Assembly: GCA_964422025.1 (NCBI GenBank) | Contig: CAYQYZ010000005.1 | Coordinates: forward strand, 2,743-66,742 | Length of the DNA stretch: 64,000 bases | Source of the DNA: an uncultured Gammaproteobacteria bacterium | Lineage (GTDB): Bacteria > Patescibacteriota > Microgenomatia > UBA1406 > HO2-37-13b | Direction of reading: 5' to 3' | Shown: positions 2-52,694 of the stretch, one piece after another | How positions within the stretch are numbered: position 1 is the first letter of the stretch | How the letters are laid out: each line of letters starts with the position of its first letter | Notes under the pieces: model-generated | Databases searched by the model: none | Told to the model about the DNA's origin: nothing | Seen by the model: the letters and a program-made list of their open reading frames with translations, nothing else | Program-made: the position numbers and the translations under genes

Positions 2-2734
2 TTGGCTTTCATTGGCTTGGTAAATTACCGTTTTGGAACCTATTTAACCGGCTGGGATAATTTGCAAACTGAACTTGCTCCTGGATTAGCGGTAAAGAGA
101 GCTGTTTTTGCCGTGTGGCAGGAATATCAGAGCTTTGGGCTCGTAGGAGGTATGGCACATGCGAGTGACTTATTGAGAGCGATTGGCGTGTGGGCATTAT
201 CATTTATAATGCCACAGAGCCTAATTCGATATGTGGTTCATATAGGAATGCTGGCTGTTGGAGCACTTGGTATATTTAAGCTATTGAGTCAAACAGAGAG
301 CGACACGAGTCATCCTGAGCCCTTCGATTACTCTCAGGGTAAACTCCGCGAAGGATCTCCGCTACCTTTCCTCGGATCACTCTTTTACATCCTTAACTTC
401 GCCACCATTCAACTCTTTTTCCTTCCCTTTGAGCCGTTCTCAATCTTTTTTGCTTCCCTGCCCTGGCTATTATGGATATTTTTACGCACTTTACTAAACC
501 ACAGTAAATTAACGCTTAAAGCCGCTACACCACTCTTTTTAATCAATCTATTAGCGACCCCAAGCTTTTATGTGCAAACGCTGTTTGTCGTATATATGCT
601 CGTATTGGGAGTGATTGGAGTTTGGAAGTTTCGAGCCCGAACGCTCTTTATTGCCTTCGCACTCATTATCACTGCCAACCTTTTCTGGATTCTTCCCCAA
701 GCGTACTTTCTAATAAATGGAGGATCCCAAACGGTCGCTAATGCCAAAATCAATCAGCTTGCCACGCAAGATGTTCAGATGCAAAACAAAGCTCGAGGAG
801 ATATTTCTTCATTCGCCACGTTTAAAAGCTTTTATTACGACTTAAATGGAACCGATCAAAAACCTCTGTTTGAACCCTGGCACAAACACCTAGAAAATCC
901 CGTCGTCCAGATTGCTTCATGGAGTATTTTTGCAATCATCCTGCTCGGAATAACTCGTAAGAGCGCGTATAGAGCTCCTTTTGTAGGAATATGGCTACTC
1001 TGTGCATTCGCACTACTCTCAAACACACCGGTAATTTCTCAGTTACACGACCTTATTACCCGAAATGGTTTGATCGCTCAAATTTTTCGAGCGCCATTTA
1101 CCAAATTCGCCGTGCCCTGGGCACTGATTTCAAGCTACTTTTTTATGAATGGAGTCTCTGTCATTCTGAACGCAGTGAAGAATCTAGGTGTTAAGCGCTC
1201 ACACCCAGATTCTTCGGCTTCGCCTCAGAATGACAAAGTGCGACAATCAGTAGGATCCATACTCTTAACAATAATCTCTTTGACGCTAATAGCCATCGTC
1301 TCTTTCCCCGTTTTCACCGGGAACTTATTCTCAGATCATGTACGCGTAAAAATTCCTACTGACTATTTCCAAACAATGGAGTATTTCGGTACGCTTCCTA
1401 AGGAGAATCGTATTGCCCTGTTGCCCCAAGATTCATTTTGGGGATGGTATCACTATTCCTGGGGATATTCCGGATCTGGGTTTTTATGGTATGGAATCGA
1501 ACAACCCATTGTGTCGCCCACGTTTGATGTGTGGAGTGCACATAGCGAGAGTTACTTTTGGGAAATGAAGCAGGCACTGGCTCTAGGAGAAGCCTCAAAG
1601 ATAACTGCCGTGCTAAAAAAATACAATATTCACTACGTGCTTGTTGATGAGAGCGTGCTTGCATCATCTACGCACCAGAAGGCATTTTTAGCCGACAAAA
1701 TTAAGGAAGCTTTAGCCAGTAATGAATCAGTACAACTTGAAAAGACATTTGGCACGATCTCGATCTACAAAGTGAAAAACGCCGCTCCCTTTGTAACCCG
1801 TATACAGAGCCTACCTGTGGTTGGACCCGACAGAGCGATTACGAACGATGATTCTGCGTATGCTTCTCTAGGAGATTACCGAAGTCCTCTCTTAGCAGAT
1901 AAGGAGAATTATGACTTCTACTTCCCGTTCTTAGATCTGTTTAGCCAAAAAAAAATATACCCACCCACGTGGAAACTTACTGAAAATCCTAATACATTTT
2001 CGTTGACAACGCAATTACCGTTTAATACAAATAAATACTCTCTGTTTTCGAGCGCCGACACATCCTTACTCCAGGGAGCTACGCAAGAGCGTTCATTGGC
2101 GGTTTCATTCCAAAAAAACTCATACGTAACGATCGATACCACCGGCGCCAAGCCTGAACAATGCCAAAAGCTCACCGTATGCGTTGCCTATTCCCTGCCC
2201 GACATTGCCCACGATCAAGCATATATTGTAAAAATTCATAATGAGAATATTGCTGGTCAGCGATTATTCTTTTACGCACAAAATATAACCACCGGAAGCA
2301 CGGTAATCGAAGACCGTTTGAGTGCGGATGTGCAGTACTTTATTCTGCCTTCAGGTAATCATTTTAGCAAAGGATATACCTTCGGTTTCCAGAATGACTC
2401 CCATGTGGGTCTTGAAAGCGAAAACGCCCTGATAAGCATACGCGTATACCATTTGCCGCTTGAACAACTAAAGGCTCTGTATTTTGCTCCTGCAGGCAAA
2501 GACGGCACAAGTACATTTGTATATAACCAGGCATACGATAGTGGCTGGAAAGCTTACCTAAATGGGCAGGAATTGGAAAATCACGTGAAAGTGAATAACT
2601 GGGCCAACGGATGGGTTATTCCGTCAGGCACTAAAGGAAATGTTCGAGTGTTTTTCTGGCCACAATTATTGGAATATGTTGGATTTGCAGCTATTGCCGT
2701 CATCGGAGTTAGTATAATAATAAAGAAAATATGA
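2..2734 (+). CDS. Large polytopic membrane protein with GT-C-like glycosyltransferase architecture (5' end outside window)
   Basis: ORF is open to the left window edge. Many hydrophobic helices in the N-terminal half, then a large soluble domain. Stop overlaps the def start (ATGA). Family assignment is by architecture only. Carries two in-frame family-1 repeat copies. Confidence 0.6.
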   Translation: MAFIGLVNYRFGTYLTGWDNLQTELAPGLAVKRAVFAVWQEYQSFGLVGGMAHASDLLRAIGVWALSFIMPQSLIRYVVHIGMLAVGALGIFKLLSQTESDTSHPEPFDYSQGKLREGSPLPFLGSLFYILNFATIQLFFLPFEPFSIFFASLPWLLWIFLRTLLNHSKLTLKAATPLFLINLLATPSFYVQTLFVVYMLVLGVIGVWKFRARTLFIAFALIITANLFWILPQAYFLINGGSQTVANAKINQLATQDVQMQNKARGDISSFATFKSFYYDLNGTDQKPLFEPWHKHLENPVVQIASWSIFAIILLGITRKSAYRAPFVGIWLLCAFALLSNTPVISQLHDLITRNGLIAQIFRAPFTKFAVPWALISSYFFMNGVSVILNAVKNLGVKRSHPDSSASPQNDKVRQSVGSILLTIISLTLIAIVSFPVFTGNLFSDHVRVKIPTDYFQTMEYFGTLPKENRIALLPQDSFWGWYHYSWGYSGSGFLWYGIEQPIVSPTFDVWSAHSESYFWEMKQALALGEASKITAVLKKYNIHYVLVDESVLASSTHQKAFLADKIKEALASNESVQLEKTFGTISIYKVKNAAPFVTRIQSLPVVGPDRAITNDDSAYASLGDYRSPLLADKENYDFYFPFLDLFSQKKIYPPTWKLTENPNTFSLTTQLPFNTNKYSLFSSADTSLLQGATQERSLAVSFQKNSYVTIDTTGAKPEQCQKLTVCVAYSLPDIAHDQAYIVKIHNENIAGQRLFFYAQNITTGSTVIEDRLSADVQYFILPSGNHFSKGYTFGFQNDSHVGLESENALISIRVYHLPLEQLKALYFAPAGKDGTSTFVYNQAYDSGWKAYLNGQELENHVKVNNWANGWVIPSGTKGNVRVFFWPQLLEYVGFAAIAVIGVSIIIKKI
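309..360. repeat. Family-1 palindromic repeat, composite variant, in frame inside a CDS
   Basis: gtcatcctgagcccttcg...ctcagggtaaac...cgcgaaggatctcc. Contains CCTGAG/CTCAGG and CCTTCG/CGAAGG inverted pairs. Translated as SHPEPFDYSQGKLREGSP. Confidence 0.6.
1160..1234. repeat. Family-1 palindromic repeat, head-to-head pair, in frame inside a CDS (75 bp = 25 codons)
   Basis: gtcattctgaacgcagtgaagaatct (1160-1185) and its inverted partner agattcttcggcttcgcctcagaatgac (1207-1234). The left half differs by 1 nt from the intergenic copy at 14355-14384. Confidence 0.85.
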
Positions 2735-10023: not shown

Positions 10024-11737
10024 CTTTTACTGATAATGATGAAAGAGCCAATCCCCAGTCTGTTCCATTGGTTGTCGTATCTTGATTTAGATCCGAAACC
10101 ATATTGGTTTGTGCATCACTTTCTCCTAACTTCGTACGGATTTTTACTAAATCCTGTGAATTACAAATACCATCTTGCACGGGCAAATCGCAGCTCATTT
10201 GATAGATTTTACTAAAATCAAACGAATTTTCTCCGGCATTAAGTGTAATGGCGCCTCGTTCACCTTTATATGTTCCCGGTGATGTTTCTGTCGGATTCGT
10301 ATCACATATTTTCTTTTGCAATTGAAAGCCACCTTTGACAGTAATACAAAATCCGGTACCAGGCGTTACAGTAAGTCCTACCGAACCCACATAGAATCCA
10401 GAATCATCAGGAGTAAATAACGCAGTTTGAGAAACTGCGCTTTGTTGCCCTGTTGCTTGTACGCCAATCTTGAATTGAATACCCCGTGTTTGTCGAGGTT
10501 TTGCTTGAATACCTTGCAAGCGCAATTTAAGTCGAACCTGCACATTTCCCGAATTTCCCCCGCCTCCACCGCTTCCACCGCTTCCTACCGTAAATGCAAA
10601 CGAGTCTTTAGCTATCGAATAGCCACTTGGGGCCTGAGGTCCAACTACTTCATACTCAGTAATCGAGATTGTTCCGGTAGCGTTACTAACCCCTTTAAGT
10701 GTAATAGGCATAGTAACTGAGCTTAAGAGGGTGGGAGCGGTACACAGCTGAGATAATCGCAGAATTCGCGTCGTAGTATCCCAACTGTTTACTACTGTTG
10801 TACATCCTGAATTATCTACAGCATCAAGCGGTACAGGAGCAAATGGACTGGTCGTTGAGCCTCCTCCTCCTGGTGCTCCTGCCCCTCCACCAGGATTTGC
10901 TGTCGATGAGTTTCCTCCTCCTCCTGGTGCTCCGGGGGCACCTGCCCCTCCACCATTATTCGCTGACGACCCTGGGGTTGCAACAGCGGTTGGCGCAGGC
11001 GCACCCGTAGTTGGTGCCGGATTGCTTCCAGAAAGTATTACGTCTACCCCCGGATCAACCTTCATTTTTACATCAAAACCCGAAACTTTTTGGTCACCTG
11101 TGAATCCATCAATAAGTAAATCTGTTGTAATTTGTTGCCCTACTGTTAATTGTCCTGAAGCAGGTGAAAAATGGGCTCGAATACCGGTTGGAGCACTCGT
11201 TGGATTTGTTCCGCCAGAAGCACAGGTATAACTTCCTTCTTCGATCGAATCCAGTGTATAAGTTTTCCCGGAACCAACGATTTCACTTCCAACGGCTGCA
11301 ATACTAAATGTTCCTGCCCCAGCACCTTCGCAGCGCAATGTAACCGGAACTGAAATACCAACGGGTAAATCAGCATCGGCTTTTAGAACTCCGTAAGAAA
11401 TTTTTTCAGTACTTTTGGTTAACTCGGTAAAAAAACCCGGCTGTGTGCCCGATACACTTCCAAGCACCATCGGTTCCCGTGAACTTTGCACCTTAACGGC
11501 ACCGGTAGTTTTAAACACTAACGTAAACGCAGAAATTTTCTCGGCATTAGCGAATGAAACAGTAATGTCTTTAGTTCCAGAAATAGAACCTGCTTTTTCG
11601 GTAACCCGAATAGGCATGCTCGTTGTAGTTGCTCGTGATCGTAAAACATACGTGTGAATTGCCATTGCAAATACAACAGTACTTACAAACACAAAAATTC
11701 CCAATACTAATAATTTAAATTTCATCGTAAATTCCAT
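10013..11737 (-). CDS. Multi-module cohesin-like surface protein with Gly-rich linker and C-terminal dockerin
   Basis: Signal anchor and several cohesin-like blocks. C-terminal module paralogous to that of 6324-9185, ending in DLNQDTTTNGTDWGLALSSL. Confidence 0.55.
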   Translation of the reverse strand: MEFTMKFKLLVLGIFVFVSTVVFAMAIHTYVLRSRATTTSMPIRVTEKAGSISGTKDITVSFANAEKISAFTLVFKTTGAVKVQSSREPMVLGSVSGTQPGFFTELTKSTEKISYGVLKADADLPVGISVPVTLRCEGAGAGTFSIAAVGSEIVGSGKTYTLDSIEEGSYTCASGGTNPTSAPTGIRAHFSPASGQLTVGQQITTDLLIDGFTGDQKVSGFDVKMKVDPGVDVILSGSNPAPTTGAPAPTAVATPGSSANNGGGAGAPGAPGGGGNSSTANPGGGAGAPGGGGSTTSPFAPVPLDAVDNSGCTTVVNSWDTTTRILRLSQLCTAPTLLSSVTMPITLKGVSNATGTISITEYEVVGPQAPSGYSIAKDSFAFTVGSGGSGGGGGNSGNVQVRLKLRLQGIQAKPRQTRGIQFKIGVQATGQQSAVSQTALFTPDDSGFYVGSVGLTVTPGTGFCITVKGGFQLQKKICDTNPTETSPGTYKGERGAITLNAGENSFDFSKIYQMSCDLPVQDGICNSQDLVKIRTKLGESDAQTNMVSDLNQDTTTNGTDWGLALSSLSVKVDD

Positions 11738-11744
11738 AGTTTAT

Positions 11745-12326
11745 TTATAGTGAACACTTTCCCCACACGCCATTACTTCCTTGTCTTCCCTTTTCAAAAT
11801 CGACAAGCGATACCTTTCCATCTCCTGTAACATCGGATGTTTTTGTGGTCGCTCGGCCGGTAAATTCGCTTATAAAGAGCGTTAAATCAGCGCAATCTGC
11901 AAGTCCATTACAATCAAAGTCACCTTGTGAAGCGGTTGTACACGTTCTTCCCTGTTCAGGTGAGCGAGGAGATTCAGGTGAGCGAGGAGATTCAGGCGAA
12001 CGAGGAGACTCGGGTGAGCCGGCTGACCCAGGCGTAAGTACACACAGCCCAGCGGTACATTCCATTTTCGCACCACTCGGTGGACACGCTTCGCCCGCTC
12101 TACACATACCTTTTGCAATAGCGAAATCTATACAGTCCTGAGGTACGGCACATGAATGGTCGCCTGAAGATGCACCAGGCGTGATTGACGATGGAGTCGA
12201 AGGAGGAATTTGTGCACGGGAAACAACATTTGCGGTCTTTTGAACTGCTACATACCCAACAGCAGAAAAGCCCGTTAATACGGCTATAACCGACAATGCC
12301 ACCAACATTTTTCCCTGAGATTCCAT
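11745..12326 (-). CDS. Small Cys-rich secreted protein with an SPESPR tandem repeat and a dockerin-like C-terminus
   Basis: N-terminal TM/signal; (SPESPR)x3-4; DCNGLADCADLTLF and DVTGDGKVSLVDF loops. Confidence 0.5.
   Translation of the reverse strand: MESQGKMLVALSVIAVLTGFSAVGYVAVQKTANVVSRAQIPPSTPSSITPGASSGDHSCAVPQDCIDFAIAKGMCRAGEACPPSGAKMECTAGLCVLTPGSAGSPESPRSPESPRSPESPRSPEQGRTCTTASQGDFDCNGLADCADLTLFISEFTGRATTKTSDVTGDGKVSLVDFEKGRQGSNGVWGKCSL
11955..12026. repeat. 18-bp tandem repeat (three good units plus one degenerate) encoding SPESPR
   Basis: ttcaggtgagcgaggaga x2, ttcaggcgaacgaggaga, then a degenerate unit. Confidence 0.85.
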
Positions 12327-12789: not shown

Positions 12790-13308
12790 TTAGCTTTTGT
12801 TTGCTGCTGCCTGAATAACTTGTATTAATTTTTGAGTGTTAAAGTTAAGGCTTCGTACCAAGCTGGTATGTGAGCTTCGTAGTGAAAGAATGATCTTGAC
12901 AACCAATTCTTCTTTGCTTGGAAGCTGTGCCAATTTCATTAAATCGTCTTTTCCATATGTTTTGCTTTCAATGATTCCCGCTTTGAAACCTACCGTATCG
13001 TGCGCTTTTGCAAACTTGTAGAATGCACTTAAGGCTGCGGTCCAATCCAATGGGAGGGTAATAACGGCTGAAGAGCCTTTTAAATCAGCGGTTTCGAGTA
13101 ATTCAGTGTGTTTGAGTTTTTGGGCAGTGACTTTGAAAAGTGAGTTTTTGACGACCGTCATGCTGCTTCCGGCGGCTCGCAAGTCGCGACGCAATTCTTC
13201 CAAATCTTTATGCGAAGTTTTAGCGAAACCGATAACAACAAAATTCTTAGATTCGTTCAATGTGGAATATAACGAGGATACAAAATCGATTTTAGCTTTA
13301 TTTGGCAT
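12790..13308 (-). CDS. rplJ: Ribosomal protein L10
   Basis: Sits immediately upstream of rplL, with L10-like length and sequence pattern. Confidence 0.85.
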   Translation of the reverse strand: MPNKAKIDFVSSLYSTLNESKNFVVIGFAKTSHKDLEELRRDLRAAGSSMTVVKNSLFKVTAQKLKHTELLETADLKGSSAVITLPLDWTAALSAFYKFAKAHDTVGFKAGIIESKTYGKDDLMKLAQLPSKEELVVKIILSLRSSHTSLVRSLNFNTQKLIQVIQAAANKS

Positions 13309-13363
13309 GATGTTTCTCTCGCAGTGGACTTAACTGTTGCCACTGGTCTATGAGAATAGAAGT

Positions 13364-13392
13364 ATTATAACGAACGGTGAAGAAATTTACAA
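13364..13392 (-). promoter_or_regulatory. Candidate rplJ promoter followed by a ~55-nt leader containing a hairpin
   Basis: Minus strand TTGTAA, 17 nt spacer, TATAAT. The leader contains a CAGTGG...CCACTG hairpin (13322-13345). Confidence 0.4.
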
Positions 13393-13673: not shown

Positions 13674-13970
13674 TCAAATCACTCGAAAGATCTTCAAGAA
13701 CAAAAACGTGAATAAATAAAATAACAACACCTGAGGTAGTGAGAGATATAAGGTCGCACATAACGCTACAATCGACACTACAAAAAACGCCTGATTATGT
13801 ATTGATGGCACGAGTCCCTTCACTATTATAATGAGGAGCAAGAGCGTCAGTAGCTTATCCGCATCAAACCACACCGGCGACCACCCCACAAAACGCGCCA
13901 CAAATAAAATTGCTGCCGCAAACATCAAAAACAGCTCTTTTGAATCAAAATAAAATGGTCCAACAAACAT
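13674..13970 (-). CDS. Small integral membrane protein (three predicted TM helices)
   Basis: 98-aa hydrophobic ORF with a -10-like TATACT 8 nt upstream of the ATG. Confidence 0.5.
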   Translation of the reverse strand: MFVGPFYFDSKELFLMFAAAILFVARFVGWSPVWFDADKLLTLLLLIIIVKGLVPSIHNQAFFVVSIVALCATLYLSLPQVLLFYLFTFLFLKIFRVI

Positions 13971-14069
13971 ATTCTAATAGTATAGTACATTCTTACTTTT
14001 TTCACCCGTAGCCATCAAATTCCCCTCTCTGCGCACCGAGCACCCCTTCTTTAGCGCCTCATATTCTTC

Positions 14070-14098
14070 TTGACATCAACAACTACATACTTTATAAT
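14070..14098 (+). promoter_or_regulatory. Perfect-consensus promoter; the predicted TSS coincides with the ATG at 14106 (leaderless)
   Basis: TTGACA (14070-14075), 17 nt spacer, TATAAT (14093-14098), 7 nt, ATG. Confidence 0.65.
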
Positions 14099-14105
14099 TC
14101 CCACC

Positions 14106-14327
14106 ATGTCGATATCAAACAAAAGTAATAACAAGGTATCACTTACCGACTTACCAGATCTGTTAACAATCCGCGAAGTTGCCGATATTTTGCGCGTTTC
14201 CCCGCTTACTATTAAGCGTTGGGGCAAACGAGGCAAACTTCCTGCTATTCGAATTAATTCCCGCGGCGACCGCCGCTACAAAAAAGAAGTCATCCAACGA
14301 TTGTTGGGAGTTGAGATTGAGGAATAA
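14106..14327 (+). CDS. Excisionase/MerR-type helix-turn-helix DNA-binding protein
   Basis: LLTIREVADILRVSPLTIKRWGKRGKLPAIRI...RRY is the excisionase-family HTH pattern. Start set at MSISNK, downstream of the promoter. Confidence 0.7.
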   Translation: MSISNKSNNKVSLTDLPDLLTIREVADILRVSPLTIKRWGKRGKLPAIRINSRGDRRYKKEVIQRLLGVEIEE

Positions 14328-17471: not shown

Positions 17472-17500
17472 TTGTAACTATTTTTAAATTCAAGTATTAT
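17472..17500 (+). promoter_or_regulatory. Promoter; the predicted TSS coincides with the ATG at 17508
   Basis: TTGTAA, 17 nt spacer, TATTAT, 7 nt, ATG. The first ATG of the ORF (17499) lies inside the -10 box. Confidence 0.5.
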
Positions 17501-17507
17501 GAAATGC

Positions 17508-18899
17508 ATGGATAACCCTGAAACTAGCGGAGTACCGGTAGATGTTGCCGCAGCTCCCGTTATCGCCGTTGAACCTGCTCTTGATTCTGGAGCTGCTTCC
17601 CAGATCGAACTACCAGATGCTGACGATATTCCACAACCAGACGATGCTCCGCCATCCCCTTCGGCCACACCTGTCGATGCCGAGGCAGCTGCACAAGCGG
17701 CAAAAGATGCTGAAAAAAGTGATCGAGAAAAACAACTTCGTACAGGCATGTCGCGTGCTTCAAATGCGACATTAAACAGGAAAACGCGCGAAACAGTGGA
17801 TCATCTTGCTACGCTCGATGTAGCAGGAAAAAAAGAGTATTTAGAAAAAAATCCTCATGCCAAAATTCTAAGCGAAATTGATTATTTACGCAATTTATCG
17901 GCCGAGCGTTTACTCAAAGAAGGACCTGTGGCATTAGATAAATCGGATCCTCCCTATGTATTTAATGGCAAAACACTTGGTTCAATAACAGCGGTAGACG
18001 GTTCTAATTTTACTTGCACCATATCGGGATCAACAGAAACCATCCCGTTAACGCGTGATCAACTAGTTGCTATTGCGATTGGAACTAATATCACTGATGT
18101 TATAGCAAATTTTCCAGATGGATCACCCCAACGCAAGTTAATCCAAACATATTTCGACACAAGTGCACCAGGAACAGAATTGACTAAAGAACAAATTGAC
18201 AACCTCCCCGATCTAATCACCGAAGTCGCTTCTGCGAATGGCCAATTTACAACCGGCGATCTTGTGAAGACACTCGAAACCCATATAGTTCCTATTGAAA
18301 TTCCAGCTGACGCTTCAGCTGAAGATCAAGCTCGACTTACCGAGCAAAATGCTCAGCGAGCCCTACAACTAGAAACTGCACGAACGGAGCTGCAAAAAAT
18401 AATTCTTCCTACGGGTGAAGATATTAGACATACCTTCGATACAGTTGGATTAACGAGCGAAAATGCTCATAAACAAGTTGCAGCAATACGTGAACGGATT
18501 CCTGAATTAAAAAAAGAAATTGACGCTGCTCAAAGTGGAGAGATTAGAGACAAGCTTAAAGCGCAACTTGACACAATTGAGGCGCAATCTCAAGTTTACA
18601 ATGAAATGTTAAAGTTGTTCAATGATGGTTCAATTGATGCCTTTGTCGAAAGCCAAGAGGAGGGCAATGTTCCACCAGATCTAGGAAAAAAGATTGTTGG
18701 TCATGCAATTAAAAACGAGATTGATGCATTGGCGTATATAGTATCACCAGAAACATCAGTAAAAGCTACCGCCGAACAGAAAACTAAGGCCCGCTTGGAT
18801 CGAGAAAAAAATGACAAAATCCTCAAAGGTGTTGGAATTGCCGCCGCCCTCGCCGCCCTACTCCTCGCCCTCGGGATCTCACAAGGGACAAAAGCGTAA
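17508..18899 (+). CDS. Hypothetical tail-anchored coiled-coil protein
   Basis: Acidic Pro/Ala-rich N-terminus, coiled-coil segments and a single C-terminal TM helix (GVGIAAALAALLLALGI). Confidence 0.65.
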   Translation: MDNPETSGVPVDVAAAPVIAVEPALDSGAASQIELPDADDIPQPDDAPPSPSATPVDAEAAAQAAKDAEKSDREKQLRTGMSRASNATLNRKTRETVDHLATLDVAGKKEYLEKNPHAKILSEIDYLRNLSAERLLKEGPVALDKSDPPYVFNGKTLGSITAVDGSNFTCTISGSTETIPLTRDQLVAIAIGTNITDVIANFPDGSPQRKLIQTYFDTSAPGTELTKEQIDNLPDLITEVASANGQFTTGDLVKTLETHIVPIEIPADASAEDQARLTEQNAQRALQLETARTELQKIILPTGEDIRHTFDTVGLTSENAHKQVAAIRERIPELKKEIDAAQSGEIRDKLKAQLDTIEAQSQVYNEMLKLFNDGSIDAFVESQEEGNVPPDLGKKIVGHAIKNEIDALAYIVSPETSVKATAEQKTKARLDREKNDKILKGVGIAAALAALLLALGISQGTKA

Positions 18900-18949: not shown

Positions 18950-19864
18950 TTACTTCTGTGGAAAATCTGGAACTGAAGGCATGTCGCTTATTGGTGCAAC
19001 GGGTTCTGGAGTTACAGCTGGTTCACTACTCCATGCCGGTGCTACGGGAGCGGAAGCCGGTTGGTTGGCCCATGTTGATGGCTCTGGAACTGCAGGTGCA
19101 GGAGTTACTACTGGAGCAATGGGTTCTGGATTTACAGCAGGAGCAGTAAACTCGCTGGGGGCAGAAACTGGTTCAACAGCGGCTGGCTCAACGGCTGGAG
19201 TCGACGGCATACCATTTTGTGATAGCGTATCCATAATTCCTTTTAACTCATCATCATGAGCTGGCTCGACGGGTGTAACAGGAGCAGCAGGTTCATTATT
19301 CCAGGCTGGTGCCGAAGGCTCGACTGGCGCTGTTAAAGGCTCGACTGGAGTAACGGGTTCCGTTGTTGCTGGTTCATTGTTCCATGCGGGTGCAGCTGGC
19401 ATTTCAGATTGTACAGGGGTGAGTGGTTCGACTGGTGTAGGTGGGGTTACCGAAGCAACTGGTGGCATTACGGGTGCTGCGGCTGGCATAGCTGCGTTTT
19501 GATCTACTTGTGCAATATTTTGATCTAGTTTTTGTTCTCCTGTTGGCCATTGTGTTGGAGCAGGTACCGAATCTTGCACAATCGGTGCAACCGGAGCAAC
19601 TTCAGGCTGTACTGAAAGTCCAAGTGCCTGTTCAAATTCTTCTTGAGTAAATCCTTTTACTACTTTCTGGTCTGCGCCTTCGCCAACTACCATAACCGGA
19701 ACGCCTGAAAAGTTGTCCGAAATAGCCAACATGGCTGAAAGTGCTGTTCTATCGTGCTCAACGTCTTTATTTTCAAATGGAATATTGTGCGCAGTTAAGA
19801 AGTCTTTAGCCTGCTTACAAAAATCTGATTCTGTGTCATTAATTGTATAGAGTATTACATTCAT
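18950..19864 (-). CDS. Glutaredoxin/NrdH-fold protein lacking the CxxC site, with a long Pro-rich repetitive tail
   Basis: VILYT....ESDFC.QAKDFL...IPFENKDV......SGVPVMVV matches the Grx fold pattern, but the first active-site Cys is replaced. The tail repeats PVTPVEP / APAWNNEPA. Confidence 0.55.
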   Translation of the reverse strand: MNVILYTINDTESDFCKQAKDFLTAHNIPFENKDVEHDRTALSAMLAISDNFSGVPVMVVGEGADQKVVKGFTQEEFEQALGLSVQPEVAPVAPIVQDSVPAPTQWPTGEQKLDQNIAQVDQNAAMPAAAPVMPPVASVTPPTPVEPLTPVQSEMPAAPAWNNEPATTEPVTPVEPLTAPVEPSAPAWNNEPAAPVTPVEPAHDDELKGIMDTLSQNGMPSTPAVEPAAVEPVSAPSEFTAPAVNPEPIAPVVTPAPAVPEPSTWANQPASAPVAPAWSSEPAVTPEPVAPISDMPSVPDFPQK

Positions 19865-19943
19865 ATATATATTGTAGATTCAAACTTACGAATCCTACTA
19901 TCACTATAAAAGAATCAATAATATGTTGTCAAGGAGGAAATAT

Positions 19944-20144: not shown

Positions 20145-20174
20145 TTGACATTGTTTGCAATACTTTTCTACAAT
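20145..20174 (+). promoter_or_regulatory. Promoter; the predicted TSS is at or next to the ATG at 20183
   Basis: TTGACA, 18 nt spacer, TACAAT, 8 nt, ATG. Confidence 0.55.
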
Positions 20175-20182
20175 CAATTAAT

Positions 20183-20779
20183 ATGACAAATCTATCAAGC
20201 ACGATCAAACAAGACCTTGCCGAGTTCAACAAACTCGACCAAAACCGAAAAATGGCCGTAATTGCCATTATTTTCGGCCTTTTCATTATTAGTATTATTG
20301 TCGGAGCAAACGTAACCAAAAAATCCGACACCGATACACAAACAGCCACTCCAACAACCGGTGCGCTTGAAAATGCAAAACCATCAACAACCATTGCCCT
20401 ATCCCCTGCTAAGCAGACTATTAAAGTAGGAGAGGCAACAAAAATTGACGTCATGCTTTCTAAACTACCCGTAACTGCTGCTGATGTAATATTGACTTAC
20501 GACGCAAAACAGGTTACCGTTTCAGCCCTTACGAATGGAACCGTGTTCCCCCGAGTAATTGGCATGAAGAATGAAACCGGAAAAATTACCTACAATGGCT
20601 CACTTTCTGAAGAAAGCCCAACCGATCGAAAAGAAGGGGTCATTTTCAGCTTCACCGTGACACCAAAAGCGGGTGCCAAATCAGTCGTAATTGACTTTGA
20701 TCATACCAAAACGCTTACTGCGATCAACGGCGAAAACACGCTGGGTAGCACAGTCGGAGGAATTTACACCATACAATGA
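20183..20779 (+). CDS. Membrane-anchored cohesin-like domain protein
   Basis: TM helix, then VGEATKIDVMLSKLPVTAADVILTYDAKQVTV...GVIFSFTVTPKAGA. Start moved from 20066, because the upstream part of the ORF is repeat and promoter sequence. Confidence 0.55.
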   Translation: MTNLSSTIKQDLAEFNKLDQNRKMAVIAIIFGLFIISIIVGANVTKKSDTDTQTATPTTGALENAKPSTTIALSPAKQTIKVGEATKIDVMLSKLPVTAADVILTYDAKQVTVSALTNGTVFPRVIGMKNETGKITYNGSLSEESPTDRKEGVIFSFTVTPKAGAKSVVIDFDHTKTLTAINGENTLGSTVGGIYTIQ

Positions 20780-25525: not shown

Positions 25526-25555
25526 TTGACTAATACAAAGCGTTTATCTTAGAAT
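25526..25555 (+). promoter_or_regulatory. Promoter; the predicted TSS coincides with the ATG at 25562
   Basis: TTGACT, 18 nt spacer, TAGAAT, 6 nt, ATG. Confidence 0.5.
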
Positions 25556-25561
25556 GAATCT

Positions 25562-28500
25562 ATGTACTCTGCCAAGCGCAATTCCGGTGAAATTTTGTCT
25601 ACCCTCCTTATCGTTTCTGCCCTTGTTATTACGTTTGGAAGCTTGCTGGGAGCCGGTAGCCGAATCTTAAAGAGTGATGCTTACGCGCCCGTGCCTCGAA
25701 TCGAGCGTACTGAAGAGAAAACCACACTTAAAGTTCTTGTTGATCCTACATTTACACAGTTAACGATTACAGGTGGCTTGTGTTTTGGAGCAGGACTCGG
25801 AAGCGGTATTGAAAAAACAACATTCTGGGCAAGCAATGATCCTCCAGGAAAAAATGTCATTTCTAATGTACTTGCGCAAACATTTAATGGCGGTTCCGGA
25901 GATTACCCTGCACCCTGTATTAGACCCGACTTTGAAGGAGACGCAATATTAACGAACAAAAATGCGACTTCTGCTCGAAATTTCGCGCTAACAGCCAAAA
26001 TGAGTCAGCCTCTAACCGATGCGTGTGTCGATGTATATTTGCATTTATACAGTAATCGACAAGGTCGCTGGCCAAATTTTAGAAGATTTAAGGTAAATAA
26101 GAATGGAATTTGTTTGCCATCGACTCCTACTGCGCAAGCAACGACTATTCCAACAGTGACTGGTGGACCAACCACTCAGCCAACCGTTACGGGAGCACCT
26201 ACAGTTGGACCAACCACCCGACCAACGATTCGCCCAACTGGAGGATTAACCGTTGTTCCTACAGCGCGAGTAACCCAAGAACCAACATTGCAACCAGGTA
26301 AGCCCGGTGCTTGTTGGCAACCATGTACGCAGCCAGGAAATAAGTGTGAACCCGGACTACAGTGTTTAACCAAAACATGTCTTCCCGGAACTCCAAATTG
26401 TGAAGATGGAACGGTGTGTTTGTCGCTTGGATTTCCTACTGACCCACGCTGTGTCAGACCAATTACACCAACAGCACAACCAACTAGAATGCCATGTAGT
26501 AACCCCACCAATACTGGAGGATGTGTACGGTTGACGATTACGCCAAAACCAACCGACGCAGCTTGTGTGCAAAATGCTCCCGGCTGGCTTGATAACGATC
26601 GTACCCGATTCATAAATTCTACGTGGGCTAAAAAGCATGCTTACGCTGATTGTCCAAGCGATAATAATGGTGGATGGCCAACATCGGCACTTGATTGTTT
26701 GATCGATGATCAGGCTTCGGGACCATCGGCCGCCGATAAACGCATTGTGAACGATCCGGCGTCACTGTACTACAAACATTTAACACCGACTGATCTGTTT
26801 ACGATCATTCCCCTCGGTTCTGTACGCTCACTTACCCAAGCTGTTGACGATGAGGTTAAGCGAGTCATTCGAGAAGCAATTGTAAATGCCGTTAAGAAAA
26901 ATCCAGAACGTTTTTCTGATATTTCATTCGATAGCATAAATGCCGGCATGGAAGGCGGACGCGATGGTGTTACTATGCGTTCCATTTCGCTGTGGGTTCA
27001 CCCAGTTGTTGAAACTATTATTACCGACGCTATTGGAATACGAGAACGTGCACGTCTCTTTGTAGAGCCGTATATCGAAGGTGCTATTGGAACAGATATC
27101 TCTACTGACGACGCCGAAATGCTCTACGCAGCAGCACTGAATAATTGTGGTGCAAGTGCCCAAGGCGGCGTTCAAAGCGGCCTGGGTGTTCGCAAGGTAT
27201 TTGGAGAGTACACAGCAGTTGTACAAAACTGGACCGATGGGGCCACAGCAGACGATATTTTCTCCGAGTACCGAGACTGTAACATTCATATCGTTCGAAC
27301 CATGATGTGTGAACCCACAACAACCCCCGTAAAACCAACCGGATCGGAAAAACCACATATTTCTGGGAAAATTACCGTAAGAAGCTGTAAAGAACCTGAA
27401 AGCATGCGCGTTTCGCGCTGTGAAAAAGGCGGAACCCGAGCGGATTGTAAGGATTTAGTACAAGAAGATCTGAGCAAAACCACCCCAGCTGACAACCGCA
27501 TTTGGGTAAATGAAGATGAAAGCGATCCAGAAAATGACCTGTTCGTATTCAACTACCGTTTGGTGACTGACAGCCAGAATGCAGCCATAGAGGAAGGTGA
27601 AGAATATCAGCTACCTAATAGTTCGATGAAGAATGACCTAACCGCCTATTATTCCGAACATCATGCAGACACCGTAATAGCCACTGGCGAGCGCGACTTT
27701 ATTATAAATGTTCCAGCGAGTGAATGCGGACCGGTTCCAACCGTCGAACCAACAGATGCTCCGAGTTGTATTTTTAACCCGGTCGCGTACGTAAAGATCC
27801 GAGAAAATGGGCAAGATACCCTGTTCCCTGAAGTTGGAAATGATGCCGAAGAATGGAGTACCACAAACGACAAACGACTTAAGAAGTATGGAGATGAGGT
27901 ATTCTACCGAGCTCCGTTTGATGAAGACGGTCAACTACAACCATGTGGACCTGACGGGTGTGATTTGACCGGAGAAAAATACTGCTGTGTTGATGACAAT
28001 AATACGCCTGCCGACTCGTACAATCTACGCAAAAAACCATACGACATTGCTAGTGTGTTCTTGTACTATCCAAAAGACAAATTCAGAATTGTCGCTAAAT
28101 GCGATCATACAGGAAAGTGTACAGAAATAGGAGAAGGAGATAGTCAAGCCGCTGCTCGACGAGTCGATAAACTTCCCGTTGGCTGTGGTCAGGAATATTC
28201 ATATGGCTGGGTAGTAGAGCGAAAGCCGCAAGCCATGTGTACGCTTACCGACCGATGTGCGCCTTCGATCGAGGACATTAAGCGTGACGATATTTCTGCT
28301 TCATCAGTCAAGCTTCGTTGGAATCAGCCTGAAGATGTTGATTGTAAATTCAATTCGTATGACTTAGATATCGTAGAGCCAACTGACGGTGGAATAGTTG
28401 TGTGTTCACTTCACGATATTGATCCAAGCGAAACTGAGGGTCGATGTAACCTACGATATAATCGTCCGACTGATGAGAGTCGCAAAGATGCGCTTACCAA

Positions 28501-29814: not shown

Positions 29815-30933
29815 CTATATAGAAAGCAAATCAAGCGCTTTTGAAAATAGTGACTGTTCTCGCCCACAGGGATTCATTGTGGTAGCCGACATACAAAAAT
29901 CTATATTAATCGGAACTGGAACTACTGCAAATAAGTACTGTTCAGATCGCCCCTTCAATTTATAAATCACTTCGGACGGTGTATTAATCACCTGAATCGG
30001 TGCTCGTACATCGCTAATAACATTAAGGTCCATCACATAGTCGGCAACTCGCTTAGGTAAATATGACAATGCTTTAAAGCCCGTTGGGGTATTGATCAAA
30101 AATTCCATTCGCGATAAATTCACCGCGATTTTACCATCAGTAGGCGTTACAATTGCGACAATATCTCCTTTAGTAATACTGAATGACCCATCTCCTAACG
30201 AAGCTAGCTTAATATTATTAAAGCCCAACCACTGATTCAATGCCGAAATTGTTTCCGTGGCATCTGTTTCTTGCACTCGTGAGTTTATGTCCGACGTATA
30301 TACTTGCTGATAAGCTATGCCGTCCGGTTTTGTTATGTCATTTGAAACCGGTTCACTTCTTGAAAAAAAAGCGAGCAGTCGGTCGACAGATGAGGTCGTA
30401 GTACTTGTATTCGCTGTAGACTGGCCTGTTTGTGCCGTAATAACGGTTGTGGTAACTACTTCTGTTTTGGGAGTAAGTTCTTGTGTTGTCGTTGTAACTC
30501 CTCCAGGAGTATTTTCTACCACTACCGTTACTGTTTTACCGCCTATATCGATTTCAGTTGTTGGCGTTCCGCCAGGAATTCCGACACCCGGTACATATAC
30601 TGGCTCATCAGGCACTATAAATGTTGGTGTTGGAATAGGATTCTGCACCGTTTGTGTGGGTTCGATAGGTATTGCAGTTACCAGTGCAACTGTAGGCTGC
30701 ATGGTAGGTGCGATACTTGGCACAATAGAAATGGGAATAATTGCCTGAGTAGGTTGCGGTTCAGTTTTTCCTGGAATCTCACCGCTGCCTGTTTCTAAAC
30801 CCAAAACACGTGGTCGGCTGTGGTTATACCACACGGTGGCAGCGAGCATAAAGAGAATTAAAGAATAAAGAACTACATTTGGAATCTGTTTTTTACTGCG
30901 TTTAATTTTTGCATGCTTGCGATATTTGCGCAT
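29815..30933 (-). CDS. Hypothetical membrane-anchored protein with a Thr/Pro-rich linker
   Basis: Basic N-terminus plus TM helix, low-complexity linker and a C-terminal globular domain of about 190 aa with no recognised motif. Confidence 0.6.
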   Translation of the reverse strand: MRKYRKHAKIKRSKKQIPNVVLYSLILFMLAATVWYNHSRPRVLGLETGSGEIPGKTEPQPTQAIIPISIVPSIAPTMQPTVALVTAIPIEPTQTVQNPIPTPTFIVPDEPVYVPGVGIPGGTPTTEIDIGGKTVTVVVENTPGGVTTTTQELTPKTEVVTTTVITAQTGQSTANTSTTTSSVDRLLAFFSRSEPVSNDITKPDGIAYQQVYTSDINSRVQETDATETISALNQWLGFNNIKLASLGDGSFSITKGDIVAIVTPTDGKIAVNLSRMEFLINTPTGFKALSYLPKRVADYVMDLNVISDVRAPIQVINTPSEVIYKLKGRSEQYLFAVVPVPINIDFCMSATTMNPCGREQSLFSKALDLLSI

Positions 30934-30939
30934 ATATTA

Positions 30940-30968
30940 GTATTACATGAATTACTAATAAGAGTCAA
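30940..30968 (-). promoter_or_regulatory. Promoter; the predicted TSS coincides with the ATG at 30933
   Basis: Minus strand TTGACT, 17 nt spacer, TAATAC, 6 nt, ATG. Confidence 0.45.
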
Positions 30969-31010: not shown

Positions 31011-31035
31011 ACTGTTAACTCTGTATAATACTCAT

Positions 31036-31305
31036 ATGGATTCCATAAAAACAGTGCTTACAAAATACAATCCAAAGGTTGATAAATACGTTTCTCGGGA
31101 ATTTCAATCGTACGGCGTTCATTTAGCAGCAAAGTTGGAAGATGAAAAGCACAAAAGCTTATACATAAAAATGTCAAAAACAGTCCCCCGCCCTATTCTA
31201 GAAAAAGCCTTGAGCTTTGTAATCGATTCCGGTGCCCGAAAAAAGGGTGCGCTGTTTATGTGGAAGCTGAAAGAACTGGGGGCAGTTGGGAAAAAATCTG
31301 TGTAA
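31036..31305 (+). CDS. Hypothetical small protein (89 aa)
   Basis: TATAAT (31024-31029) lies 6 nt upstream of the ATG. The 3' end overlaps the convergent pth gene by 50 nt. Confidence 0.45.
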   Translation: MDSIKTVLTKYNPKVDKYVSREFQSYGVHLAAKLEDEKHKSLYIKMSKTVPRPILEKALSFVIDSGARKKGALFMWKLKELGAVGKKSV

Positions 31306-31774
31306 ACACCTTTTCTATTGTGACAAACTCTTCGGACGTGAAATTTTGCAGCGTATATTCCACACCCGCTACCCTGTTTTCCGAATCTCGGTTTTCAATT
31401 CCAATCCGAACCCGGGTAAAATCCTTTGTGCCCAGTTCGCGCTCTATAGAAAGTATTCCATTGTGCCCATACGGACCTTTTCCGTGTTGAATCTTGAATT
31501 CACCGAGCTTTATATCTAAATCATCGTGCACAATTATAAGGTCGTTTGAATCGACTTTATAAAAGTTCATTGCCTGACGAACTTCTATACCTGAATCGTT
31601 CATAAAACATTTGAGTTTTAAGGCTTTCCACCCAGACTTGTCATTCAGAGCAACATTGTCATGCTGAACTTGTTTCAGCATCTCCTCCGCCCTATCCACC
31701 AACATAACTCCCACATTATGACGAGTCTTTTCATATTTTTCTCCGGGATTTCCCAGGCCAATCAGTAGCTTCAT
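31256..31774 (-). CDS. pth: Peptidyl-tRNA hydrolase
   Basis: LIGLGNPG..Y..TRHNVG, FMNDSG, HDDLD and GHNG motifs. Start set at MKLLIGLGNPG, because the longer ORF would run into tRNA-Leu. Confidence 0.9.
   Translation of the reverse strand: MKLLIGLGNPGEKYEKTRHNVGVMLVDRAEEMLKQVQHDNVALNDKSGWKALKLKCFMNDSGIEVRQAMNFYKVDSNDLIIVHDDLDIKLGEFKIQHGKGPYGHNGILSIERELGTKDFTRVRIGIENRDSENRVAGVEYTLQNFTSEEFVTIEKVFTQIFSQLPPVLSAST
31640..31685. repeat. Family-1-like sequence (duplicated head plus CTGAA/TTCAG hairpin) embedded in the pth coding sequence
   Basis: gtcattcagagcaacattgtcatgctgaacttgtttcagcatctcc. Same layout as 29694-29725 and same hairpin as 30984-31010. Confidence 0.6.
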
Positions 31775-31799
31775 GTGTACAGTATAATATATAAACACA

Positions 31800-31934: not shown

Positions 31935-31942
31935 AGGTATGA

Positions 31943-52688: not shown

Positions 52689-52694
52689 TAGTAC

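What the first reader, a model, noticed from the sequence alone, without database searches (positions are those of the whole stretch)
14070..14108. Promoters placed so that transcription should start at the ATG: widespread leaderless mRNAs
At 17 gene starts, a -10-like hexamer lies 5-8 nt upstream of the ATG, often with a -35 at 17-18 nt.

Plus strand (-10 hexamer, then ATG):
- TATAAT 14093, ATG 14106
- TATTAT 17495, ATG 17508
- TACAAT 20169, ATG 20183
- TAGAAT 25550, ATG 25562
- TATAAT 31024, ATG 31036
- TATCCT 44543, ATG 44555
- TACAAT 52683, ATG 52695
- TATAGT 58411, ATG 58424

Minus strand (-10 hexamer, then ATG):
- TACAAT 58382, ATG 58370
- TAATAT 44503, ATG 44489
- TAATAC 30945, ATG 30933
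- TATACT 46053, ATG 46040
- TATACT 54708, ATG 54695
- TACAAT 19876, ATG 19864
- TATACT 13984, ATG 13970
- TATACT 31786, ATG 31774
- TATAAT 50231, ATG 50220

With the usual 6-7 nt from the -10 hexamer to the TSS, there is no room for a Shine-Dalgarno sequence. Exceptions with real leaders are rplJ, the Rhs operon, the 900-aa gene, rpmB and the GT9-like gene. Leaderless initiation is established in several phyla. Its dominance at operon-first genes here would matter for gene calling, and several first ATGs in the ORF track lie inside promoters.
Basis: partly seen in the sequence, partly recalled or inferred. Interest (0 to 1): 0.55.

Follow-up and report, generated by a model that had tools for sequence, protein, structure and literature searches.

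The report
Leaderless gene starts in a CPR bacterium
In this 64-kb piece of an uncultured ultrasmall (CPR, Microgenomates-type) bacterium, about two thirds of transcription units have a standard promoter placed so that the mRNA should begin at the ATG itself; this way of starting genes is well known elsewhere but I found no report of it for this group, and it affects how their genes should be called.

Summary
All 17 hexamer/ATG pairs sit at the stated coordinates with 5-8 nt between them. It is far beyond chance. Of 27 operon-first genes, 18 have TANNNT at gap 5-8, against 5.3±2.0 in dinucleotide shuffles and 6.5-6.7% at other ATGs; internal genes score 0/16.

These are promoters, not ribosome-binding motifs:
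- Eight of the 17 have a ≥5/6 TTGACA match at 16-19 bp (null 0.45).
- Four more have a TGn extended -10.
- 16/18 have a pyrimidine at -1, giving the Y-A-T start element.
- In two syntenic relatives the -35, the -10 and the gap to ATG are conserved while the spacer diverges, and the proteins align from residue 1.

SD-like motifs are almost absent. Internal genes mostly overlap their upstream gene (ATGA).

The organism is a CPR/Patescibacteria bacterium near Roizmanbacteria. The same peak at gap 6-7 appears in two independent sets of Microgenomates-type loci. It is absent from Parcubacteria, Berkelbacteria and non-CPR loci.

The mechanism is the known leaderless type (GeneMarkS-2 "group C"). No searchable paper links it to CPR. 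No TSS data exist, so leaderless status is inferred. Verdict: supported; a new member of a known kind.

The parts
14070..14108 (+). Perfect promoter TTGACA(14070)-17-TATAAT(14093)-7-ATG(14106) of a MerR/HTH gene (73 aa)
   Evidence: (12/12 match)
17472..17510 (+). TTGTAA-17-TATTAT(17495)-7-ATG(17508), 463-aa gene. An in-frame ATG at 17499 overlaps the -10.
20145..20185 (+). TTGACA-18-TACAAT(20169)-8-ATG(20183), first gene (cohesin-like) of the operon with the 1569-aa gene
25526..25564 (+). TTGACT-18-TAGAAT(25550)-6-ATG(25562), 1374-aa surface protein. The -35, the -10 and the gap are conserved in L002 and L003 while the spacer diverges.
31024..31038 (+). TATAAT(31024)-6-ATG(31036), 89-aa gene. 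No -35. The -10 and the gap are conserved in L002 and L003.
31905..31945 (+).
44520..44557 (+). TTGTCA-17-(TG)TATCCT(44543)-6-ATG(44555), DUF2061 gene. Its -35 shares the same 7 bp with the divergent promoter.
52680..52697 (+). Extended -10 TGaTACAAT(52683)-6-ATG(52695), PEGA-domain gene
58388..58426 (+). TTTACA-17-TATAGT(58411)-7-ATG(58424), LytR_C gene. The orthologue in L082 has TTGACT-17-TATATT-6-ATG.
58368..58405 (-). TTGACA(58405)-17-TACAAT(58382)-6-ATG(58370), alcohol dehydrogenase. It overlaps the 58424 promoter face to face in a 53-bp intergenic region. L082/L083 have TTGACT-18-TACAAT-6-ATG.
44487..44526 (-). TTGACA(44526)-17-TAATAT(44503)-8-ATG(44489), 145-aa membrane protein
30931..30968 (-). 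TTGACT(30968)-18-TGtAATACT(30947-30939)-5-ATG(30933), 372-aa gene. Conserved in L002 and L003.
46038..46076 (-). TTTACT(46076)-17-TGgTATACT(46053)-7-ATG(46040), 367-aa gene, 47 nt downstream of the preceding gene
54693..54708 (-). TATACT(54708)-7-ATG(54695), sortase. No -35. The orthologue in L082 has TGgTATACT-6-ATG.
19862..19932 (-). Ambiguous: TACAAT(19876)-6-ATG(19864) with no -35, plus a strong upstream promoter TTGACA(19932)-18-TATAGT(19908) that would give a leader of about 31 nt
13968..13984 (-). TATACT(13984)-8-ATG(13970), 98-aa membrane protein; -10 only
31772..31786 (-). TATACT(31786)-6-ATG(31774), peptidyl-tRNA hydrolase. The -35 region lies inside tRNA-Leu on the other strand. The -10 and the gap are conserved in L002 and L003. 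The Pfam domain starts at residue 3.
50218..50231 (-). TATAAT(50231)-5-ATG(50220), 287-aa gene; -10 only; not conserved in L082
6283..6320 (-). Extra candidate inside an apparent operon: TTGACA(6320)-17-CATAAT(6297)-6-ATG(6285)
11735..11749 (-). Weak extra candidate: TATAAA(11749)-6-ATG(11737); the true start may be the second Met
13306..13392 (-). Leadered contrast: rplJ promoter TTGTAA(13392)-17-TATAAT(13369), with 55 nt to ATG 13308

Best explanation
These are ordinary housekeeping (sigma-70-type) promoters placed directly against the coding sequence.

**Proposed mechanism**
- RNA polymerase binds a -35 TTGACA-like hexamer, or instead a TGn extended -10. It also binds a TAnAAT -10 box 17-18 bp downstream of the -35.
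- It melts the DNA and starts at the purine 7-8 nt (range 6-9) after the -10.
- In about 18 of about 27 transcription units here, that purine is the A of the ATG. It is preceded by a pyrimidine, so Y-A-T forms the conserved 'start' element.
- The mRNA therefore begins with 5'-AUG and has no 5' UTR and no Shine-Dalgarno site.
- Translation must begin by direct binding of a ribosome carrying initiator tRNA to the 5'-terminal AUG, which is the leaderless pathway.
- Downstream genes in operons are mostly translated by stop/start overlap (ATGA), that is, termination-reinitiation coupling.

**Shown here**
- The motifs, their positions, their statistics and their conservation.
- The correctness of the ATG starts.
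- The scarcity of SD motifs.
- The recurrence of the signature in Microgenomates-type relatives.

**Inferred**
- The actual TSS.
- The mode of ribosome recruitment.
For: **Positions and chance**
- The positions are exact.
- TANNNT at gap 5-8 occurs at 18/27 first genes, against 5.25+-1.97 in shuffles, 6.5-6.7% at other ATGs and 0/16 at internal genes.
- A blind gene caller gives 14/26, against 4/26 and 3/26 at control offsets.
- Eight of 24 strong promoter matches abut a long-ORF ATG, against 1.1% background (p=2e-10).

**Promoter features**
- -35 matches of >=5/6 occur at 8/17 sites, against a null of 0.45.
- A pyrimidine is at -1 in 16/18, against 43% background (p=7e-5).
- This matches the rule of a YRY start element with the TSS 7-8 nt after the -10, seen across 49 bacteria (PMC12641261).

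**Conservation**
- Orthologues in L002 (81% Pth identity) and L003 (Roizmanbacteria) align from residue 1.
- They keep the -35, the -10 and the gap while the spacer diverges.
- L082/L083 do the same for the ADH, sortase and LytR_C genes.

**Relatives (158 sites, window excluded)**
- The unconstrained hexamer positions give TAtAAT.
- A TGn extended -10 emerges.
- TTG peaks at spacer 17 (23 sites) and 18 (14 sites), against 1-6 elsewhere.
- A pyrimidine is at -1 in 79%.

**SD and start codons**
- The SD core at -15..-7 is found in 1.3% of signature genes, against 36% in the non-CPR/Berkelbacteria control loci.
- The N-termini show signal anchors or domains right after the Met, with in-frame stops just upstream.
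Against: - No transcription start site has been mapped for this organism or any close relative.
- Five or six of the 17 sites have only a -10 box. One of them (19864) has a better promoter upstream.
- Gaps of 5 and 8 could give a TSS 1-2 nt off the A.
- In more distant relatives (67-72% ADH identity), the same gene often has the -10 box 11-19 nt from the ATG. The arrangement is therefore not fixed for each gene.
- In the ADH-neighbourhood set, the gap-6 peak sits on a broad shoulder of short leaders.
- The 5'-end folding energy does not distinguish these genes from the others.
- The 16S anti-SD tail could not be examined.
Confidence: 0.8

Rival explanations
1. The promoters are real, but most transcripts carry very short leaders (1-10 nt), or the 5'-proximal ATG is not the start used. 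Initiation would then be 'short-leader, SD-independent' rather than strictly leaderless.
For: - Gaps of 5 and 8 nt occur.
- Gene 12326 has a gap of 11, and the GT9-like gene 54764 has a gap of 14.
- ADH orthologues in more distant relatives have gaps of 11-19 nt.
- There is a broad shoulder of TANNNT at gaps 9-22 in the ADH-neighbourhood loci.
- For 11737 the second Met looks like the signal-peptide start.
Against: - The mode is sharply at gap 6-7, where RNAP starts on the 7th-8th nt.
- Y-A-T sits exactly there in 16/18 sites.
- The proteins of relatives align from residue 1, and signal anchors follow the first Met.
- Leaders of 5 nt or less are functionally classed as leaderless anyway.
Confidence: 0.12
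2. The TAnnnT box at -12 is an AT-rich, non-Shine-Dalgarno translation signal, like the group B motif of Bacteroidota. It would act on leadered mRNAs made from promoters elsewhere.
For: - SD motifs are rare throughout.
- In Levybacteria-type relatives the box also occurs before genes only 1-20 nt from the upstream gene (12/33).
Against: - In the window it is absent from internal genes (0/16).
- In relatives it is absent from overlapping genes (3/30).
- It co-occurs with TTGACA at exactly 17-18 bp, with a TGn extended -10, and with a pyrimidine at -1. These are properties of promoters, not of ribosome-binding sites.
- In orthologues the -35 and -10 are conserved while the spacer drifts.
Confidence: 0.04
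3. It is a chance or composition artefact. AT-rich intergenic DNA, or in-frame TAA/TAG stops just upstream of ORF-initial ATGs, would mimic TANNNT.
For: - Low-stringency promoter-like matches are no more frequent than in shuffles: 45 against 42.4, and 34 against 36.4.
- Some -10 boxes contain the in-frame stop, for example TAG at 25550.
Against: - Dinucleotide shuffles give 5.25+-1.97 against 18 observed.
- Spurious ORF-initial ATGs give 6.5% with a flat profile.
- Non-CPR loci run through the same pipeline show no peak.
- There are independent -35, TGn and Y(-1) signals.
Confidence: 0.01

Closest known systems
Bacterial 'group C' genomes of GeneMarkS-2 (Actinobacteria such as Mycobacterium tuberculosis and Streptomyces; Deinococcus-Thermus such as Deinococcus deserti)
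   Same: - A Pribnow box (TANNNT) lies 6-8 nt upstream of the start codon of first genes in operons.
- There is no SD at those genes.
- A large share of transcription units is affected: 25-50% predicted, 167/262 measured in D. deserti (PMC6028130).
   Different: - The lineage here is CPR/Patescibacteria, Microgenomates type. This group is not named in the text of that paper, and I could not see its supplementary tables.
- The GC content is low (about 42-43%), whereas code-11 group C genomes are reported as almost all high-GC (MetaGeneMark-2 preprint).
- Many promoters here have a full TTGACA -35 or a TGn extended -10.
- The remaining genes show almost no SD signal, whereas group C genomes use SD sites for leadered and internal genes.
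- The leaderless share in this window (about 67% of first genes) is above the 25-50% quoted.
Mycoplasma and other genetic-code-4 genomes classed as group C
   Same: Low GC content, small genomes, and 30-60% of genes with transcripts predicted to be leaderless.
   Different: The genetic code differs: this window reads well with TGA as a stop. The phylum differs. No experimental TSS maps exist here.
Archaeal leaderless transcriptomes (Haloferax volcanii, Saccharolobus solfataricus; group D)
   Same: Leaderless transcripts are the majority mode. Internal genes rely on other mechanisms, including coupling.
   Different: The archaeal promoter is a TATA box about 26 nt upstream, used with TBP/TFB. 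Here the promoter is a bacterial -35/-10 with the -10 at 6-8 nt.
Group B non-SD initiation of Bacteroidota
   Same: SD motifs are scarce.
   Different: In group B the upstream motif precedes all genes, including internal ones, on leadered mRNAs. Here the motif has promoter architecture and is absent before overlapping internal genes.

Membership tests
Leaderless-transcription genome organisation (GeneMarkS-2 group C) | -10 Pribnow box (TANNNT) localised about 6-8 nt upstream of the start codon of first genes in operons | tested here: met
   - 18/27 first genes, with the peak at gap 6-7.
- Relatives show a peak of 22 and 12 per 100 genes, against about 2.6 background.
- An independent set shows 26/140 at gap 6.
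Leaderless-transcription genome organisation (GeneMarkS-2 group C) | The signal is absent at internal operon genes, which use an RBS instead | tested here: inconclusive
   - It is absent at internal genes in the window (0/16) and at overlapping genes in relatives (3/30).
- It is present before genes with 1-20 nt gaps in Levybacteria-type loci (12/33).
- Internal genes show hardly any SD (8.5% against 5.3% background). They appear to rely on stop/start overlap rather than an RBS.
Leaderless-transcription genome organisation (GeneMarkS-2 group C) | No Shine-Dalgarno sequence upstream of the leaderless genes | tested here: met
   An SD-like motif occurs at 1/26 first genes in the window. The SD core occurs in 1.3% of signature genes, against 36% in control loci.
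Leaderless-transcription genome organisation (GeneMarkS-2 group C) | The experimentally mapped TSS coincides with the start codon (5' UTR of 0-5 nt) | not testable with these tools
   No RNA 5'-end data are available. This is inferred from the -10 to ATG distance and the Y-A-T start element.
Leaderless-transcription genome organisation (GeneMarkS-2 group C) | 5'-terminal AUG as the start codon, correctly assigned | tested here: met
   - All candidates are ATG.
- 12 of 17 are the first start codon after an in-frame stop.
- Orthologues align from residue 1.
- The Pth domain starts at residue 3 and the MerR, ADH and sortase domains fit.
Sigma-70 (housekeeping) promoter | -35 TTGACA-like hexamer 16-19 bp upstream of a TATAAT-like -10, or a TGn extended -10 | tested here: met
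   - 10/17 sites have >=4/6 and 8/17 have >=5/6, against nulls of 3.3 and 0.45.
- TG is present at four further sites.
- In relatives TTG peaks at spacer 17-18 and TGn emerges.
Sigma-70 (housekeeping) promoter | Start element Y(-1)R(+1)Y(+2) centred 7-8 nt downstream of the -10 | tested here: met
   A pyrimidine precedes ATG at 16/18 sites in the window (p=7e-5) and at 125/158 sites in relatives. The rule is from PMC12641261.
Group B non-SD RBS (Bacteroidota type) | The same upstream motif before first and internal genes alike, on leadered mRNAs | tested here: not met
   0/16 internal genes in the window and 3/30 overlapping genes in relatives carry it. The motif carries -35 and TGn companions.
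Candidate Phyla Radiation / Microgenomates (source organism) | Closest relatives by conserved protein and by synteny are CPR Microgenomates genomes | tested here: met
   - The top Pth hits are a syntenic MAG (L002, 81%) and a Candidatus Roizmanbacteria MAG (L003, 59%, syntenic over about 20 kb).
- Next come Levybacteria, Microgenomates and other Patescibacteria.
- No rRNA or ribosomal-protein phylogeny was done.

The most novel reading that the evidence does not exclude
Leaderless initiation together with stop/start coupling may be the default way of starting translation across a whole CPR class (Microgenomates/Microgenomatia, and possibly Saccharibacteria-type lineages), with Shine-Dalgarno pairing almost unused. 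That would make this the first low-GC, standard-code bacterial lineage with an archaeal-level share (60% or more) of leaderless transcription units. It may be linked to the reduced CPR ribosome, which has a short bS1 and lacks uL30 and bL9. It would also allow extreme promoter compaction: face-to-face divergent promoters in 53-65 bp, and promoters embedded in the 3' end of the upstream gene.
Probability: 0.45. Interest if true: 0.65.

Novelty: new member of a known kind. Interest (0 to 1): 0.5.

Why it matters
**Gene calling.** CPR genomes are known almost only from metagenome bins annotated automatically. If first genes are leaderless, start-codon models that expect an RBS will misplace starts. 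In this window the longest-ORF starts at 14070 and 17499 lie inside the promoter. The -10 box at 6-7 nt can serve as a start-site signal instead.

**Biology.** The finding extends leaderless-dominated expression to a deep, very large and poorly understood bacterial radiation with reduced ribosomes, and to a low-GC genome. It also yields concrete near-consensus promoters, for example 14070-14108, which are useful for the genetic tools now being developed for Patescibacteria.

**Evolution.** It adds a data point to the debate on whether leaderless initiation is ancestral or repeatedly derived. The contrast within CPR makes that comparison tractable: the Berkelbacteria locus is SD-rich, the Parcubacteria loci show no peak, and the Microgenomates loci show a strong peak.

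Tried and rejected
- **Low-stringency promoter counts.** Matches at 9/12 are not above shuffles. Only the position relative to ATGs and the high-scoring matches are informative.
- **5'-end folding energy.** For the first 36 nt, leaderless candidates (mean -2.5 kcal/mol) are no less structured than other gene starts (-1.4). Both are less structured than random 36-mers (-3.8). This is not discriminating.
- **16S 3' tail.** No 16S rRNA is present in the window or in any of the 130 fetched loci. The anti-SD sequence could not be read. I rely on PMC9297842, which reports anti-SD loss only in a Parcubacteria subgroup.
- **Literature.** Searches combining 'leaderless' with Candidate Phyla Radiation, Patescibacteria, Saccharibacteria, TM7x, Nanosynbacter or Microgenomates found no paper making the link. 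The GeneMarkS-2 supplementary genome lists are not held. The Nanosynbacter TSS paper (PMID 35975994) is not held. An unseen prior mention therefore cannot be excluded.
- **ORF-definition artefact.** The idea that an in-frame TAA/TAG at -12 produces the signal was considered and rejected by the spurious-ORF control and the non-CPR control.
- **Rhs gene 43975.** TACATT at gap 5 has no -35, and a better promoter lies 35 nt upstream.
- **Taxon labels.** Labels of many MAG loci are unreliable. L002 is labelled Gammaproteobacteria but is syntenic with the window. The group-level comparisons by label are indicative only.
Full report
**1. The observation**

The gaps are 5 (x1), 6 (x8), 7 (x5) and 8 (x3) nt (parts re-verified). 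Several sites are textbook promoters, for example cTTGACAtcaacaactacatactttTATAATtcccaccATG at 14070-14108.

Corrections to the list:
- 30945 'TAATAC' is better read as the extended -10 TGtAATACT with gap 5.
- The gene at 19864 has a much stronger promoter further upstream, TTGACA-18-TATAGT at 19932-19903, which would give a leader of about 31 nt.
- One clear case was missed: 31905-31945, TTGACA-18-TATCAT-8-ATG.
- Two likely internal promoters were also missed, at 6320-6283 and 11749-11735.

**2. Is it more than chance?**

I used a curated list of 27 operon-first and 16 internal genes.
- TANNNT at gap 5-8 occurs at 18/27 first genes and 0/16 internal genes.
- Dinucleotide shuffles of the 40-nt upstream regions give 5.25±1.97, with a maximum of 13 in 2000.
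- All other ATGs in the window give 6.7% (binomial p=2e-15).
- ORF-initial ATGs are preceded by an in-frame stop that could mimic 'TA'. I therefore tested 554 spurious ORF-initial ATGs. They give 6.5% with a flat positional profile.

It gives 14/26 at gap 5-8, against 4/26 and 3/26 at control offsets.

Working from the promoter side gives the same answer. Of 7 sites matching TTGACA-16..18-TATAAT at ≥11/12, 5 have the ATG of a long ORF at gap 5-8. Of 24 sites at ≥10/12, 8 do. The positional background is 1.1% (p=2e-10). The built-in scanner lists the same top sites. It also shows that low-stringency matches are not above shuffles, so position is what carries the signal.

**3. Promoter or translation signal?**

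Four independent features point to promoters.
- **A -35 element.** Eight of the 17 sites have a ≥5/6 TTGACA match 16-19 bp upstream of the -10 (null mean 0.45, maximum 4 in 2000). Ten have ≥4/6 (null 3.3). Four more carry TG at -15/-14, an extended -10.
- **The start element.** The base before the ATG is a pyrimidine in 16/18 sites, against 43% at all ATGs (p=7e-5). Y-A-T is the Y(-1)R(+1)Y(+2) 'start' element that fixes the TSS 7-8 nt after the -10 across 49 bacteria (PMC12641261). A gap of 6-7 nt puts the A of the ATG exactly there.
- **Gene class.** The motif is missing before genes that overlap their upstream gene: 0/16 in the window and 3/30 in relatives.
- **Phylogenetic footprint.** Two syntenic relatives were compared: L002 (Pth 81% identical) and L003 (a Roizmanbacteria MAG). 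Both are 65-85% identical in DNA over about 20 kb. For the 1374-aa gene, TTGACT and TAGAAT and the 6-nt gap are invariant while the spacer and everything upstream have diverged. The same holds for 30933, 31036 and pth. L082/L083 keep TTGACT-18-TACAAT-6-ATG at the ADH gene, TGgTATACT-6-ATG at the sortase gene and TTGACT-17-TATATT-6-ATG at the LytR_C gene.

**4. Are the ATGs the real starts?**

- Twelve of the 17 are the first start codon after an in-frame stop.
- Orthologous proteins align from residue 1.
- The Pth domain begins at residue 3, and the ADH, MerR and sortase domains fit.
- Most of the membrane or secreted proteins show a signal anchor within the first 10-35 residues.

**5. The rest of the translation picture**

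SD-like motifs are nearly absent, at 1/26 first genes in the window. Across Microgenomates-type loci, the SD core at -15..-7 is found in:
- 1.3% of signature genes;
- 8.5% of other non-overlapping genes, against a 5.3% positional background;
- 36% of genes in the non-CPR and Berkelbacteria loci processed identically.

Seven of the 16 internal genes in the window overlap the upstream gene by ATGA, and 36 of 70 overlaps in relatives are of this -4 type. This fits termination-reinitiation coupling.

Leadered exceptions exist:
- rplJ, 55 nt from TATAAT at 13369;
- Rhs;
- the 900-aa gene;
- the GT9-like gene, with a gap of 14;
- MreB.

None of these has an obvious SD.

**6. Who is it, and how far does the trait extend?**

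The gene content fits a CPR bacterium: many proteins without Pfam hits, cohesin/dockerin and PEGA surface proteins, a sortase, and a compact layout. The closest genomes are a syntenic MAG and a Candidatus Roizmanbacteria MAG, followed by Levybacteria, Microgenomates and other Patescibacteria.

I ran the blind pipeline on the 80 Pth neighbourhoods.

| Group (by record label) | First genes | TANNNT at gap 6 / gap 7 | Notes |
|---|---|---|---|
| Microgenomates | 100 | 22 / 12 | about 2.6 per position background |
| Saccharibacteria | 61 | 10 / 7 | smaller peak |
| Parcubacteria | 64 | 4 / 4 | no peak |
| Berkelbacteria/Peregrinibacteria/Gracilibacteria | 36 | 1 / 2 | no peak |
| Non-CPR | 146 | 5 / 4 | no peak; 37-46% SD-like |

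An independent set of 38 metagenome loci around ADH orthologues (335 kb) again peaks at gap 6, at 26/140. That peak sits on a shoulder of short leaders.

In 158 signature sites from relatives, with the window excluded:
- the unconstrained hexamer positions give TAtAAT;
- TGn emerges;
- TTG peaks at spacers 17 (23 sites) and 18 (14 sites), against 1-6 elsewhere;
- 79% have a pyrimidine at -1.

MAG labels are partly unreliable, so the group boundaries are indicative only.

**7. Comparison with what is known**

This is the architecture of GeneMarkS-2 'group C' genomes. That paper describes a Pribnow box 6-8 nt from the start of first genes. It reports the pattern for 90% of Actinobacteria and 97% of Deinococcus-Thermus, with 25-50% of transcripts leaderless (PMC6028130). 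The MetaGeneMark-2 preprint states that code-11 group C genomes are almost all high-GC, while low-GC group C genomes are code-4 Mycoplasma-like.

The present case differs in four ways:
- the lineage is CPR;
- the GC content is low (42-43%) with the standard code;
- the -35 elements are frequently strong;
- SD is almost absent at the remaining genes.

Work on CPR ribosomes reports short bS1, missing uL30 and bL9, and anti-SD loss only in some Parcubacteria. It says nothing about leaderless mRNAs (PMC9297842). Five literature searches found no paper linking leaderless initiation with CPR.

**8. Verdict**

The mechanism is a known one, so this is a new member of a known kind.

It has practical weight for start-codon calling in CPR bins. 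It has some evolutionary interest if the trait proves class-wide and SD-independent. TSS mapping is the decisive missing experiment.

Noticed in passing
window 13568-13672 (+): A near-consensus promoter, TTGACA-17-TATTAT, lies just after tRNA-Asp. About 70 nt downstream is a strong hairpin plus U-run terminator. The fold is -26.1 kcal/mol with z=-3.75, and there is no Rfam family. It is a candidate small RNA of about 70 nt. A leaderless 37-aa ORF is less likely.
   Followed up: partly
window 58377-58416 and 44498-44548: Divergent leaderless gene pairs are separated by only 53 and 65 bp, so their promoters overlap face to face. At 44520-44526 the two -35 hexamers (TTGTCA on +, TTGACA on -) occupy the same 7 bp. 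This suggests mutually exclusive RNAP binding.
   Followed up: partly
window, internal genes (e.g. 2731, 4962, 14743, 20776, 34860, 46636, 49360): Seven of the 16 internal operon genes start with an ATGA stop/start overlap. SD-like motifs are at or near background throughout the window and in Microgenomates-type relatives.
   Followed up: partly
L023, L033, L062, L048 (Levybacteria-type loci): A -10-like box at gap 6-7 also precedes genes only 1-20 nt, or -4 nt, from the upstream gene. One example is the conserved ...GCGCAAAGTATATAATG.ATAAT-ATG. Promoters therefore seem to be embedded in the 3' end of the upstream coding sequence (12/33, against 4/33 at the control offset).
   Followed up: partly
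L059 (Berkelbacteria CP011213.1) versus Microgenomates loci: CPR is not uniform. The Berkelbacteria locus has SD-like motifs at 9/11 first genes and no -10 peak. Parcubacteria-labelled loci show neither a peak nor SD enrichment.
   Followed up: partly
L002 (CAYPSA010000003.1) and several 'binchicken' MAG loci: The record titles say 'uncultured Gammaproteobacteria'. However, L002 is syntenic with this window and with a Roizmanbacteria MAG (65-85% DNA identity). The taxonomic label is evidently wrong.
   Followed up: partly
window 4959-10023 and 20183-29686: These are clusters of large surface proteins with cohesin and dockerin domains. They include an M4 thermolysin-like protease with cohesin plus dockerin, and proteins of 1569 and 1374 aa with no other Pfam hit. 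This suggests a cellulosome-like attachment scaffold in a CPR bacterium.
   Followed up: no
window 46088-48787: A lipid gene cluster contains a CarS-like (CDP-archaeol synthase family) protein, a diacylglycerol-kinase-like protein, a PHP-domain protein and a CDP-alcohol phosphatidyltransferase.
   Followed up: no
window 19862-19932 (-): Tandem promoter candidates precede the glutaredoxin-like gene: a strong distal one giving a leader of about 31 nt, and a proximal -10-only one that would be leaderless. The gene may produce two transcript forms.
   Followed up: no
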